64,000 bases of DNA. Origin: Escherichia coli. Lineage in GTDB: Bacteria; Pseudomonadota; Gammaproteobacteria; Enterobacterales; Enterobacteriaceae. Below are positions 51,501-54,500 of the stretch, piece after piece. Made by a program: the position numbers. Each line of letters begins with the position of its first letter. Position 1 is the first letter of the stretch. The stretch is from assembly GCF_044324785.1 (NCBI RefSeq), contig NZ_CP172128.1. One strand, written 5' to 3'.

Positions 51501-54500
51501 CCCTGACCCGCAGATGACCGGTTTTATCTGTGTCGATAGCCACATAATCCAGAATGTCATCCGGTGGCAGGTCTGCAGGATCCAACATAAGGCCTCCTTA
51601 CGGGCAGCGGCGCCCGGAAAATATGTTTTCTGTTATTAAGCGAGGGAAATAATCAGTTCTTCTGCGGAGAGAATCTGGACATTTTCAGCACAGGCTTAAC
51701 AGTGTAAAAATGATTACGCCTCCAAAAGCGAATAACAGGGGAATGTTTTTCTCCGGCTGTGTTGATCTCAGCGTTAATACCGGTGTGGCGAGAGCGTAAA
51801 AAATAATACCTGCGGTATAAATAAAATAAGGTGTGATGCCGGACAGATTACATACACTGGCGAATATCATAAGCATGACGGCAACTACCGATAAAATAAT
51901 GGAAGTATTCTTCCATTCACCAGATGGTGTAAGTGAAATGATATCGCCATCCTGTTTATAGTTCGTGTTCAGCTTCAGGAAATGACGGATATCTTTCAGC
52001 GTGTTCAGTTTCTGCTGGATCTCTTCCACAAGTTCCTGTCTGTCGGTTTTTTCACGGAGCAGCTGGAATTTTGTCTCCCTCAGTACAGATATAATACGGT
52101 CCACCTGGCCGGGGGAGGGATAGTAATGATGTTCGAGCATCCACCGGATATCGGCGATTAACCGGTCAGTTACCGGTGTATTACCGTTGTTAATGAGAGG
52201 TGTTTCGTGCATCCACTGAAATATGCGGTAGATATGTCGCTTAACAAAAATAAAATCATCGGTGGTTTTATTCTCCAGCATGAGATATATCCCGTCGAGT
52301 GTTAATAATAAAACGTCCCGGGTGTGAGGTGATTTGTGATGTATTGTACGGAATATCATTTCTGCACTGTAATCGTTTACGCAGGTGATATATCACACCA
52401 GAGTAAATACAGCGGAATGAAGCTGTAGAGTGACCAGAAAAGCCCGACGGGATCTTTTGCCCACAGGCATAAGAATGTCAGTCCGGTGCATCATGCGCCG
52501 GCAAGTGCCGCGCATAATTCAGCGCCTCCGGAATTGCCGCTCTTCATCATATAACAGAGCGCGATCAGCAGTGGGATAATGAAGACGAGCGGCAGGACAA
52601 AGGATTCGGCTGCGGATATCCATTCCCGGTAACGCCAGCGGTCGTTTAATCTGTCGGCATCATATTTCAGACAGTTGCTCAGGAACGCCAGATCGTTCAT
52701 GAGGGGGGCGTCCTGGCCATACTGCGCCGCGAGGCGCATTCTGGCACCCCACAACCGGGCACTCAGGGCACGGAGTTGTGCCGGGGTGACCTGTTTTCCC
52801 CGACAAAGTTGTACCTGTAATTGTGTTGCCTCGTGGACAATATCTGTGTGGTTCACCCCATATTCTGCAGCGGCTGTTTCCAGGTCACGGATGATCAGGC
52901 TGAGCCAGGATATCAGTTCACTGATGTTCATTGTCGTTCATCCTTTTGTACGGACAGCCGCCTGTACTGGCGGCCGGTTTCATGGTCGCAGGGTTTTTCT
53001 GATGCCGGACTGCTCCAGTACCACACTGTCCGGTGTGATTTTCTCCACGAGATAAGGGGTTCCGGGGATGTTCTGGCCCGTCTTCACATCGGTGATGTGT
53101 CCACCCGAAAGTTCTATCCGGGCTCTCAGCTGAGGCTGTACACCAAATATTTCTGTCAGACGGGGGGATGTCGCCGTCGACGGGGCAGTCGGGATGGCGG
53201 ACGTGCTTTCCTGCGGACGACCGGGCTCTGCGGGAATACCCTGCTCCAGCATGCGCAGTTCATGACGGATTTTCTCTCTCGCCAGCATGGCTTCATACAG
53301 GGCTGTTTCGTCCTGTATCCGCTCAATCTGCAGTTGCCGGGGACTCTGTTCCTCTGCGTTTCCGGTTGTGGCCATTGCCGTTGCCGGTAACAGCAGCGCT
53401 GAAACCAGAAGGGCTTTTGTTTTAGCGTGCATAATATTTACCTGTAAATTGATAGTGGAAACGACCGTTCTCCAGTTGTCGTGTGACAGAGATAAAACGG
53501 ACAGAAGGCGCCTTCAGACGTTCAACCAGCTGGTATGCCGGGAGTAGCGTCTGTATCTGAAGGTCATACTCTTTCCACGGAGGCTGGATAATATTTCCGT
53601 TTTCATCGGTGACGCTGTTACTGACCTCCTGCCAGTCCAGCGTCAGTGGCATTGACTGAGCAAGCGTGGTCAGTTGTTCTTGCAGGACAGAGCTTTCCGG
53701 CAGAGCATCAACGTCGACGGGATGTTCAGGCAGGCGGAAGCTGACTGGCAGGCCAATGCCGCCGGTCTTTCCTTCCGGCATCACAATAAAGGGGCGGGTG
53801 CCCGTCATATCACTGATGCGCCGGATGAAGTCAGTCACTGTCGCGCCAGCTGTATTAGTGTACGAGGCGCGAAGATTGCCGCTGCCGCCGTCAGTTGAAC
53901 ATTCAGCCAGCGAATAACGCCATCCGGCGGCAGACAATGGCAGTGACGTCCATATGTCAGCACATCCCTGGATAAAGGCGTCGGTTTCGGGGAGTCCGGG
54001 CCAGGGGGGACTGATTCGTTCCTCTGTGGCCTGTCGGGCAGCTGCTGCCTGCGCGGCTTGTTCAGTCTTCCACCGTTCATAATACTGCCAGCCGTACCAT
54101 GCAGCGCCGAGAAGGGCGATGATCAGCGAGACAGTGATGAACTGCGCTCCCCGGGATACCGGATTCAGGCGCGCGGCAGCCGGATGTTTACCAGAGCCGG
54201 TCAGGGTGGACAGCGGCAGGGCCTGATTCTGATCGCCTGCTGAAAATGCCACCGGTTCATAGCGTGTCCAGCCCTGCTCCGGTTCGGTGTTGATGGAAAG
54301 AAAGGTATCCCGGGCTTCACGGACCTCTTCTCCGCTTCCCACCAGGTCACTGACGAGAACACCGTCGACAGCGGAAACAAAGCTGTAGCGCGGTGTTTCT
54401 CCGGGTAACGTCAGTTCCGTGATGGCATAGCCGCCATGTTCAAGCAGTGGCAGGATCAGCAGGGCGAGGGAGAAGCACTGACGGGGTTTTCCGGGCAGTA

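What the first reader, a model, noticed from the sequence alone, without database searches (positions are those of the whole stretch)
51685..52931. Two extra membrane-anchored genes inside the thin-pilus operon between pilP and pilQ
The pilL-M-N-O-P and pilQ-R-S-T-U-V blocks match the R64 order as I recall it, but two ORFs (146 aa and 224 aa, each a soluble N-terminal domain plus C-terminal TM helix or helices) are interposed. I do not recall genes at this position in R64. They could be relocated pilI/J/K-type accessory genes or a cargo insertion.
Basis: partly seen in the sequence, partly recalled or inferred. Interest (0 to 1): 0.45.

Follow-up and report, generated by a model that had tools for sequence, protein, structure and literature searches.

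The report
Hitchhiking membrane-gene cassette in pilus operon
The two extra genes between pilP and pilQ are real and are a partly decayed copy of an undescribed membrane-protein cassette found only inside the mating-pilus and transfer operons of several unrelated conjugative elements, so it probably has a conjugation-linked but non-essential role whose function is still unknown.

Summary
In this IncK2 plasmid window, a ~1.3-kb insert (window ~51624/51630-52931, minus strand) lies between pilP and pilQ. R64, ColIb-P9, IncI2 and sister IncB/O/K/Z plasmids have pilP and pilQ 10-100 bp apart.

Two corrections:
- The 146-aa ORF "A" is a nonsense-truncated allele (W147*) of a 184-aa protein.
- The 224-aa ORF "B" most likely starts at Met27, giving 198 aa.

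A and B are not PilI/J/K relatives. They are distant paralogues of each other, each an N-terminal four-helix bundle followed by three transmembrane helices. The family has no Pfam, NCBIfam, PHROG, PADLOC or PDB match, and only 23 representatives among 1.84 billion proteins.

The same A-then-B pair recurs only inside transfer operons:
- traU|trbC of F-type plasmids
- pilO|pilP of an E. coli ICE
- as a single gene, traR|traT of Erwiniaceae I-type plasmids

Outside I-complex plasmids it carries a third, antisense gene "C" that is weakly PilK/TraD-like. The window lacks C.

Near-identical F backbones carry cassette alleles only 24-30% identical. One sister plasmid replaced the cassette with a RelE/ParE pair.

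Best reading: a horizontally exchanged, non-essential inner-membrane accessory cassette, probably conflict- or exclusion-type. The function is inferred, not shown.

The parts
52980..53432 (-). pilP (150 aa), the last gene before the insert
   Evidence: Annotated as PilP in the 100%-identical pTB-nb2 and in pTMSA1088. tblastn finds PilP in 1088 plasmids.
52957..52974 (-). GC-rich hairpin (GCCGCC-AGTACA-GGCGGC) just after the pilP stop. It belongs to the backbone, not to the insert.
   Evidence: Present in both filled and empty junctions.
51624..52931 (-). The inserted cassette, ~1.30-1.31 kb. The left edge is the ATG of ORF A. The right edge is ambiguous by 6-7 bp because of a GAA(A/C)GACA / GAAAACA microhomology.
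   Evidence: blastn against the empty sites L004 and L007: homology stops at 52932 and resumes at 51629, with a 6-bp overlap in the subject. No terminal inverted or direct repeats of transposon type were found.
52491..52931 (-). ORF A, a truncated allele (146 aa). It retains the cytoplasmic four-helix bundle, TM1 and half of TM2.
   Evidence: AF2 model of the 184-aa form has pLDDT 82, with helices 3-24, 29-43, 50-71, 76-97 and TM helices 108-130, 134-157, 161-181. This exact 146-aa sequence is seen on 575 contigs.
52377..52493 (-). The premature TGA (52491-52493, TGG in other plasmids) plus the now-untranslated 3' part of gene A. This part encodes the rest of TM2 and the conserved LWAKDPV...IPLY helix.
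   Evidence: Alignment with pTMSA1088, translation, conservation.
51685..52281 (-). ORF B (198 aa from Met27; the maximal ORF reaches 52359). It appears intact: a four-helix bundle plus three TM helices. The region is lower in GC (44-46% against 55-57% in the flanks).
   Evidence: AF2 pLDDT 71. dN/dS 0.23-0.28. The exact sequence is seen on 917 contigs.
50080..51588 (-). pilQ (502 aa, T2SSE-type ATPase), the first gene after the insert. Its own Shine-Dalgarno sequence (GTAAGGAGG) is retained.
   Evidence: Pfam T2SSE E = 5e-60. Junction sequence.

Best explanation
The two ORFs are a degraded copy of an unnamed, horizontally exchanged accessory cassette that lives only inside conjugative transfer or pilus operons.

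Anatomy. In its full form the cassette has three genes. 'A' and 'B' are two co-oriented paralogues. Each has a ~100-aa cytoplasmic four-helix bundle followed by three transmembrane helices. Between them lies an oppositely oriented gene 'C', which has three N-terminal TM helices and a ~130-aa C-terminal domain with weak PilK/TraD likeness.

History (shown by comparison). An ancestor of the IncK2-type I-complex plasmids acquired the cassette at the pilP|pilQ junction and lost C. In the lineage of this window, A then picked up a nonsense mutation (W147*). B remains intact and under purifying selection. The cassette is read through as part of the pil operon, because pilQ-V lie downstream and no convincing terminator intervenes.

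Function (inferred, not shown). The products form an inner-membrane complex made whenever the pilus is made. It is dispensable for pilus assembly and transfer. It most likely serves a conflict-type role, such as excluding something that enters via the mating apparatus: incoming conjugative DNA or pilus-specific phage.

Confidence by step. That it is a real, acquired, transfer-operon-specific cassette of paralogous membrane proteins: ~0.9. That it is non-essential for the thin pilus: ~0.8. That its role is exclusion/conflict rather than assembly or regulation: ~0.4.
For: Acquired insert:
- Empty junctions exist in R64, ColIb-P9, IncI2 and IncB/O/K/Z plasmids.
- Breakpoints are precise.
- 111 IncK2-type plasmids carry the insert at >=99% identity.

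Same ordered pair in other transfer operons:
- traU-A-(C antisense)-B-trbC in Salmonella, E. coli, Klebsiella and metagenome F-type plasmids.
- pilO-A-C-B-pilP in an E. coli ICE.
- A single A/B-like gene between traR (DUF6750) and traT/traU of Erwinia and Pantoea MPF_I plasmids.
- No homologue in 50,697 phage records.
- Only 23 representatives among 1.84 billion proteins.

Paralogy and fold:
- The A-family HMM hits B at E = 3e-8 and the Erwinia protein at 2.7e-7. The B-family HMM hits the Erwinia protein at 2e-13.
- hhalign aligns GKQVTPAQLR of A with HYYPSPGQVD of B.
- The two AF2 models have the same architecture.

Conflict-like evolution:
- pKP91 and pKPGJ-2b share 96.9% and 98.2% identical flanks, yet their cassettes have no nucleotide similarity and 24-30% protein identity, while TrbC is 95% identical.
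- Presence/absence varies among close relatives. pBIC1a, for example, has traU next to trbC.
- A RelE/ParE pair replaced the cassette in pSTEC2018_607-b, leaving the first ~213 nt of A.
- Decay is recurrent: A of 146 and 107 aa, B of 148 aa, frameshifted C.

Still selected: dN/dS for B is 0.23-0.28, like pilO and pilP at 0.25-0.31.

Dispensable: the plasmids carrying the truncated A are all typed as conjugative (MOB-suite prediction) and are numerous.
Against: - No experiment and no homology links A, B or C to any exclusion or defence protein. PADLOC, Pfam, NCBIfam and PHROGs are all negative. The A and B HMMs gave no reported hit to the R64 ExcA ORF.
- Fold searches return only generic four-helix bundles.
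- The weak C-PilK/TraD link, and the strict residence in assembly operons, fit an assembly or regulatory accessory role just as well.
- In this window C is gone and A is truncated, so the local copy may be partly or wholly non-functional.
- dN/dS of A within I-complex and ICE copies is 0.53-0.65, which indicates relaxed constraint.
- Co-transcription with pil is inferred from position only.
Confidence: 0.55

Rival explanations
1. The cassette is a facultative assembly or regulatory accessory of the mating apparatus. This would be an inner-membrane scaffold or modulator related to the R64 PilK/TraD proteins. It would tune pilus production, stability or retraction in some lineages, rather than being a conflict system.
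For: - The cassette resides exclusively inside pilus or transfer assembly operons of four kinds.
- In F-type plasmids it stays in the same traU|trbC slot across deep divergence.
- Gene C is weakly similar to R64 TraD/PilK. BLASTP gives E = 8e-4. hhalign gives probability 56% and E = 1.1e-4 over the shared SHL(L/F) region. TraD is the top hit among 2425 ORFs at E = 4.4e-4.
- pilK is listed among genes required for R64 thin-pilus biogenesis, going by the titles of Yoshida 1999 and Sakai & Komano 2002 as cited in PMC10286972.
- IncK2 lacks recognisable pilJ, pilK or traD.
- B is under purifying selection like pilO and pilP.
Against: - The cassette is absent from R64, ColIb-P9, IncI2, many IncB/O/K/Z plasmids and many F plasmids that have complete operons.
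- It occurs in both type IVb pilus operons and type IV secretion operons, which share no assembly components.
- Near-identical backbones tolerate cassette alleles only 24-30% identical, which is unusual for a part that must fit a conserved machine.
- Truncated alleles are widespread.
- The gene with the PilK/TraD likeness is the one missing from this window.
Confidence: 0.25
2. In this plasmid the insert is a decaying, functionless remnant. It is carried along only because it sits in an operon that must be read through.
For: - C has been deleted.
- A is truncated by W147*, with loss of its most conserved helix.
- Other truncated A alleles exist, at 107, 110 and 164 aa.
- dN/dS for A is 0.53-0.65 in I-complex and ICE copies.
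- One sister plasmid has replaced most of the cassette.
Against: - B is intact in essentially all copies, with dN/dS of 0.23-0.28 over 17-24% protein divergence.
- Intact 184-aa A alleles remain common, at 484 + 249 + further contigs.
- The pair has been retained in at least two diverged I-complex lineages that are ~90% identical at the DNA level.
Confidence: 0.13
3. A and B are relocated or diverged versions of the canonical accessory genes pilI, pilJ or pilK.
For: - IncK2 has a pilI homologue but no recognisable pilJ or pilK upstream of pilL.
- Like PilJ and PilK, A and B are small membrane proteins.
Against: - There is no sequence similarity; the best BLASTP E-value is 0.36.
- Family HMMs find nothing in R64.
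- The topology is opposite. PilJ and PilK have N-terminal TM helices with a C-terminal soluble part, while A and B are the reverse.
- The same pair occurs in F-type tra operons, which have no pil genes.
Confidence: 0.02
4. The pair is a toxin-antitoxin or addiction-type module, with a membrane toxin and its antidote.
For: - It is a two-gene module of small proteins.
- The same slot holds a RelE/ParE-type pair in pSTEC2018_607-b.
- Its distribution is patchy.
Against: - The two proteins are paralogues with the same architecture, unlike toxin/antidote pairs.
- There is no match to any toxin-antitoxin family in Pfam or NCBIfam.
- One partner (A) is often truncated while B stays intact, with no sign of lethality.
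- The cassette is found only within transfer operons, whereas addiction modules sit anywhere on plasmids.
Confidence: 0.05

Closest known systems
Non-essential 'trb/art' accessory ORFs embedded in the F-plasmid tra operon (for example trbA, artA, trbE, trbJ)
   Same: Both are small, mostly membrane-associated proteins. Both are nested between essential assembly genes, variably present among F-like plasmids and of unknown or minor function. artA lies on the anti-tra strand (from my own knowledge; PMC5102898, only lists ArtA among the F tra-region proteins), which parallels the antisense gene C. The F gene order traW-traU-trbC-traN, with nothing between traU and trbC, follows the list in PMC5102898.
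   Different: There is no sequence relationship to any named Tra/Trb Pfam family. The cassette also occurs in type IVb pilus operons and in I-type T4SS operons, not only in F-type operons. It shows deep allelic replacement.
R64 (IncI1) PilK and TraD accessory inner-membrane proteins
   Same: Gene C of the full cassette shares their layout: N-terminal TM helices and a ~90-130-aa C-terminal domain with an SHL(L/F) motif. It gives weak but consistent similarity. PilK and TraD are themselves paralogues (E = 1e-14).
   Different: C is absent from this window. A and B, the genes actually present, show no similarity to PilI, PilJ, PilK, TraC or TraD. Support for the C link is only moderate (hhalign probability 56%).
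Entry-exclusion proteins of conjugative elements (F TraS, IncI1 ExcA, SXT Eex)
   Same: Both are small inner-membrane proteins encoded within transfer regions, dispensable for transfer, highly divergent between otherwise similar plasmids and exchanged as alleles. That evolutionary pattern is seen here.
   Different: The A and B HMMs gave no reported hit to the R64 ExcA ORF. F TraS was not tested. The host plasmids already carry their own exclusion genes. Any exclusion activity is purely hypothetical.
RelE/ParE toxin-antitoxin cargo at the same pilP|pilQ slot (pSTEC2018_607-b)
   Same: It occupies the identical junction, which shows that this site tolerates and exchanges cargo.
   Different: The proteins are unrelated and on the opposite strand. 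It replaced the A/B cassette and left a 72-codon stump of A.

Membership tests
R64 thin-pilus accessory proteins PilI / PilJ / PilK | Detectable sequence similarity to R64 PilI (84 aa), PilJ (150 aa) or PilK (196 aa) | tested here: not met
   BLASTP of A (184 aa) and B (198 and 224 aa) against R64 PilI/J/K and ColIb-P9 PilJ/K: the best E-value against these is 2.0 (the 0.36 cited elsewhere is A against the window's own TraC-like ORF), with matches of only 7-43 residues. The A and B HMMs gave no hit in the R64 pil region.
R64 thin-pilus accessory proteins PilI / PilJ / PilK | Position upstream of pilL, with N-terminal TM helices and a C-terminal soluble part (PilJ, PilK) | tested here: not met
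   A and B lie between pilP and pilQ. They have the reverse layout: an N-terminal helical bundle and C-terminal TM helices.
Unnamed A/B family (four-helix bundle + 3 TM, tenant of transfer operons) | Sequence motifs. A type: GK(Q/R)VTPAQ(L/V)R, RWxYREW, LWAKDPVxLFWxxYSFIPLY. B type: WMLxHxYYPSPxQVD, LKDI(R/H)xFL, DGxII(S/T)L. | tested here: met
   Alignments. Window B carries all the B motifs. Window A carries the first two A motifs but has lost the third to the W147* stop.
Unnamed A/B family (four-helix bundle + 3 TM, tenant of transfer operons) | A and B belong to one superfamily (paralogy) | tested here: met
   hmmsearch with the A HMM against window B gives E = 3e-8. The Erwinia intermediate is hit by both HMMs, at 2.7e-7 and 2e-13. 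hhalign gives E = 1.3e-4, probability 54%. The AF2 models have matching architecture.
Unnamed A/B family (four-helix bundle + 3 TM, tenant of transfer operons) | Located inside a conjugative pilus or transfer operon, co-oriented with it, in the order A then B | tested here: met
   This window. F-type traU|trbC. ICE pilO|pilP. Other I-complex plasmids.
Unnamed A/B family (four-helix bundle + 3 TM, tenant of transfer operons) | Antisense third gene C between A and B (full form of the cassette) | tested here: not met
   The A-B gap in the window is ~95 bp. tblastn of five C proteins finds nothing in 51600-53000. C is present in F-type and ICE copies.
PilK/TraD family (applies to cassette gene C only) | Significant profile similarity over the C-terminal domain | tested here: inconclusive
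   hhalign probability 56%, E = 1.1e-4 over 68 columns. The best pairwise E-value is 8e-4. The C HMM hits R64 TraD at E = 4.4e-4 as the top of 2425 ORFs, but PilK only at E = 0.65.
Entry/surface exclusion proteins (IncI1 ExcA; F TraS) | Sequence similarity to ExcA or TraS | tested here: not met
   The A and B HMMs were run against all ORFs of the R64 region that holds excA (L032). The ExcA ORF gave no reported hit. F TraS was not compared.
Entry/surface exclusion proteins (IncI1 ExcA; F TraS) | Reduces transfer into cells that express it (exclusion index) | not testable with these tools
   This needs mating assays.
Known anti-phage defence systems (PADLOC-DB v2) | Match to any defence-protein HMM | tested here: not met
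   No hit at E <= 1 for A, B, C or distant members.
Type II toxin-antitoxin modules | Match to a toxin or antitoxin family; two dissimilar partners | tested here: not met
   No Pfam or NCBIfam match. The two partners are paralogues.

The most novel reading that the evidence does not exclude
The A-C-B cassette may be a previously unrecognised conjugation-linked conflict system. It would be a specificity-bearing inner-membrane complex, made together with the mating pilus, that blocks entry of rival conjugative DNA or pilus-dependent phage. It would move between type IV pilus and type IV secretion operons and exist as deeply diverged, exchangeable alleles.
Probability: 0.3. Interest if true: 0.7.

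Novelty: new variant of a known kind. Interest (0 to 1): 0.5.

Why it matters
IncK2 plasmids are the main carriers of blaCMY-2 in poultry and people, and F-type Klebsiella plasmids spread carbapenemases. Both carry this unannotated cassette in the middle of their mating machinery.

Three features together are hard to explain by chance: the cassette is found only in transfer operons of four mechanistically different kinds, near-identical plasmids hold very different alleles, and the cassette is often in decay. This points to an unstudied accessory layer of conjugation biology, which could be exclusion, phage protection or modulation of the pilus.

If it sets who can mate with whom, or protects piliated donors from male-specific phages, it would affect plasmid epidemiology and phage-based anti-plasmid strategies.

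If it proves neutral, the result still has value. It defines the pilP|pilQ and traU|trbC junctions as cargo slots, and it corrects the annotation of both genes.

Tried and rejected
- Profile libraries. Pfam, NCBIfam, PHROGs and PADLOC scans of A, B, C and distant members gave only sub-threshold noise: FliL, DUF5693, CrcB and similar.
- Solved structures by sequence. Profiles of A, B and C gave nothing significant.
- Transposon-like ends. A repeat search across the insert found none. The promoter/terminator scan was uninformative.
- Phage origin. There is no tblastn hit for A, B or C in 50,697 phage records.
- Relocated pilI/J/K. Rejected by BLASTP and HMM.
- Literature. I found no description of these ORFs in the I-complex TraDIS paper (PMC10286972), the F-like comparative paper (PMC5102898), the pBIC1a transcriptome (PMC6286996; that plasmid lacks the cassette) or PMC7822866. 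Sakai & Komano 2002 (PMC139557) is not held.
- Different position in the ICE. I considered whether pilO|pilP in the ICE means independent insertion. The ICE copy carries I-complex-like flanks: the pilO 3' end and pilP 5' end at 84% identity, plus ~50 nt of the pilP-pilQ spacer. A recombinational mosaic is therefore more likely.
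Full report
**1. What is in the window**

The thin-pilus operon lies on the minus strand:

| Gene | Window coordinates |
|---|---|
| pilL | 56830-57900 |
| pilM | 56388-56825 |
| pilN | 54738-56357 |
| pilO | 53422-54717 |
| pilP | 52980-53432 |
| ORF A (146 aa) | 52491-52931 |
| ORF B (224 aa maximal) | 51685-52359 |
| pilQ | 50080-51588 |
| pilR-pilV | follow downstream |

The 1.7-kb stretch around the finding is 100% identical to pTB-nb2 and >=99% identical in 106 plasmid records. All examined records are typed IncK2/Z, MOBP and MPF_I. In every record the two ORFs are annotated 'hypothetical protein'.

**2. The two genes are extra**

- R64 has 10 bp between pilP and pilQ. 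ColIb-P9 is the same.
- IncI2 pD90-2 has 25 bp.
- IncB/O/K/Z relatives pO111-110512_1, pMTY10008_IncBOKZ and CP027441 have 84-102 bp.

Alignment of the window to two empty junctions shows where homology breaks. It runs to window 52932, one base before the ATG of A, and resumes at about 51629. The junction carries a short imperfect microhomology: GAACGACA|ATG... on the left and ...GAAAACA|TATTTTCC on the right, against GAAAGACA|TATTTTCC in the empty site.

The pilP-proximal hairpin and the pilQ Shine-Dalgarno sequence belong to the backbone. There are no transposon-like terminal repeats.

**3. Two corrections to the gene models**

- ORF A. Against pTMSA1088, the 146-aa ORF ends at TGA where the other plasmid has TGG. 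The undisrupted protein is 184 aa. The stop falls in predicted TM2 and removes TM3. TM3 carries the most conserved motif of the family, LWAKDPVxLFWSLYSFIPLY. This exact truncated allele is common, seen on 575 contigs. Intact 184-aa alleles are seen on 484 + 249 + further contigs.
- ORF B. All homologues start at the equivalent of Met27, and PGAP annotates 198 aa.

**4. What the proteins are**

Neither protein matches Pfam, NCBIfam, PHROGs, PADLOC or PDB sequences. AlphaFold2 with family alignments gives the same plan for both. There are four N-terminal helices of about 100 residues, followed by three hydrophobic helices. Mean pLDDT is 82 for A and 71 for B.

They are paralogues:
- The A-family HMM scores the window's B ORF at E = 3e-8.
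- An Erwinia protein that combines features of both is hit by both HMMs, at 2.7e-7 and 2e-13.
- hhalign aligns the conserved loops GKQVTPAQLR and HYYPSPGQVD.

Fold searches return only generic four-helix bundles. A cytoplasmic location for the bundle is my inference, based on the basic RWRYREW-type segment before TM1.

**5. Where else the genes occur**

The family is tiny. An exhaustive profile search of 1.84 billion representatives found 23 proteins. Every context I could inspect is a conjugative transfer or pilus operon:

- I-complex plasmids, between pilP and pilQ. This includes a second lineage ~90% identical at the DNA level.
- An E. coli chromosomal ICE with a TraI_2 relaxase and an integrase, between pilO and pilP. 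Its A is 66% and its B 78% identical to the window's.
- F-type plasmids of Salmonella, E. coli and Klebsiella, plus a metagenome contig, always between traU and trbC. In F itself, traU is followed directly by trbC (gene list in PMC5102898). The same is true in IncFIIK pBIC1a (PMC6286996).
- Erwinia and Pantoea MPF_I plasmids, as a single A/B-like gene between traR (DUF6750) and traT/traU.

None occurs in 50,697 phage records.

**6. A third gene that the window lacks**

In all F-type and ICE copies, a 224-273-aa gene lies on the opposite strand between A and B. I call it C. It has three N-terminal TM helices and a conserved C-terminal domain with the motifs SHLL, LNLRYGGKTRYRLF and KHPNGFKVHRNGGAF.

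C is 29-49% identical across contexts, so it is a real gene. It has no Pfam, PADLOC or PDB match.

C shows weak but repeatable similarity to R64 TraD and PilK, which are themselves paralogues:
- best pairwise E = 8e-4
- hhalign probability 56%, E = 1.1e-4
- TraD is the top hit of the C HMM among 2425 ORFs, at E = 4.4e-4

I-complex copies, including the window, have only ~95 bp between A and B and no trace of C.

**7. Evolutionary behaviour**

- Presence or absence varies among close relatives (sections 2 and 5).
- In pSTEC2018_607-b the slot holds a RelE/ParE pair on the other strand. The '72-aa hypothetical' next to pilP there is the first ~213 nt of A, so the toxin-antitoxin pair replaced a pre-existing cassette.
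- The ICE copy is flanked by I-complex-like sequence: the pilO 3' end and pilP 5' end at 84% identity, and the spacer upstream of A. Its different position is best read as a recombinational mosaic, not an independent insertion.
- pKP91 and pKPGJ-2b have 96.9% and 98.2% identical DNA on the two sides. Their A-C-B cassettes share no nucleotide similarity and only 29%, 30% and 24% protein identity, while TrbC is 95% identical. Across F-type plasmids TraU stays at 78-83% identity while A, B and C fall to 22-51%.
- Decay is frequent: A of 146, 107, 110 and 164 aa, B of 148 aa, and frameshifted C.
- Even so, B has dN/dS of 0.23-0.28, like pilO and pilP at 0.25-0.31. A has 0.53-0.65 in I-complex and ICE comparisons and 0.37 between F-type copies.

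**8. Interpretation**

Shown: the finding is a real, acquired cassette of two paralogous membrane proteins. It belongs to a small family restricted to conjugative transfer operons. The local copy has lost gene C and carries a truncated A.

Shown by comparison: the cassette is dispensable for the pil operon, because complete operons in many relatives lack it.

Inferred: it is co-transcribed with pil, since there is no convincing terminator and pilQ-V lie downstream.

Inferred: its products form an inner-membrane complex.

The features favour a conflict or specificity role co-expressed with the mating apparatus over a structural role:
- transfer-operon exclusivity across mechanistically unrelated machines
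- deep allelic replacement in constant backbones
- patchiness and decay
- replacement by another selfish module

Exclusion of incoming DNA, or of pilus-dependent phage, is the most concrete version of such a role. This is a hypothesis at about 0.4. The main rival, at about 0.25, is a facultative assembly or regulatory accessory linked to PilK/TraD.

**9.

'Cargo insertion' is supported. 'Relocated pilI/J/K' is not supported for A and B.

**10. Novelty and score**

I found no description of these genes in the papers searched. They have no family name in any library. The general category, non-essential ORFs nested in transfer operons, is known. This particular family, its three-gene form, its spread across four operon types and its allelic behaviour appear undescribed.

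Interest is 0.5. This is a solid, testable lead for plasmid biologists, but the function is unknown and the local copy is degraded.

Noticed in passing
window 59245-61586 (minus strand): A flotillin/SPFH protein (564 aa; Pfam Flot 1e-38, Band_7 1e-18) and a YqiJ/NfeD-like membrane protein (206 aa) lie between pilI and the traC-like gene. pTMSA1088 retains only a 181-bp internal fragment (window 59547-59727), so the pair has been deleted there. This is a second variable membrane-protein cargo next to the pil operon.
   Followed up: partly
window 58022-58849: At the position where R64 has pilJ and pilK, IncK2 has no recognisable homologue. Instead there is an unannotated TM-rich 143-aa ORF on the pil strand (58418-58849) and an annotated 131-aa ORF on the opposite strand (58022-58417). 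The stretch is AT-rich, at 38-41% GC.
   Followed up: partly
L003 (pSTEC2018_607-b) 3380-4159: The same pilP|pilQ slot holds a RelE/ParE-type toxin gene and its partner on the opposite strand. There is also a 72-codon stump of gene A. This shows cargo replacement at the site.
   Followed up: yes
L022 (pKP91) 4784-6928 and L023 (pKPGJ-2b) 4978-7006: Two Klebsiella F-type plasmids have 97-98% identical flanks but carry A-C-B cassettes with no DNA similarity and 24-30% protein identity. This is an allelic cassette swap bounded by the traU stop and the trbC start.
   Followed up: yes
L031 (Erwinia amylovora plasmid II) 6857-7537; L033 (Pantoea plasmid) 4899-5513: A single gene intermediate between A and B sits between traR (DUF6750) and traT/traU of I-type (Dot/Icm-like) transfer operons. 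This is roughly where R64 has its tiny traS.
   Followed up: partly
L008-L011 (E. coli chromosomal ICE) 9858-12023: The ICE pil operon carries A-C-B between pilO and pilP. It also has a duplicated fragment of the pilO 3' end and pilP 5' end (84% identical to the window) upstream of A. This suggests a mosaic formed by recombination with an I-complex plasmid.
   Followed up: partly
window 43000-46200: The shufflon segments downstream of pilV are arranged differently from pTMSA1088, with inverted and duplicated short matches. This is expected for an active shufflon next to the rci-type integrase.
   Followed up: no
L029 (R64) 20693-21283 and 22350-22916: R64 PilK (196 aa) and TraD (188 aa) are clear paralogues (27% identity over 180 aa, E = 1e-14). 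Neither has a Pfam family.
   Followed up: partly
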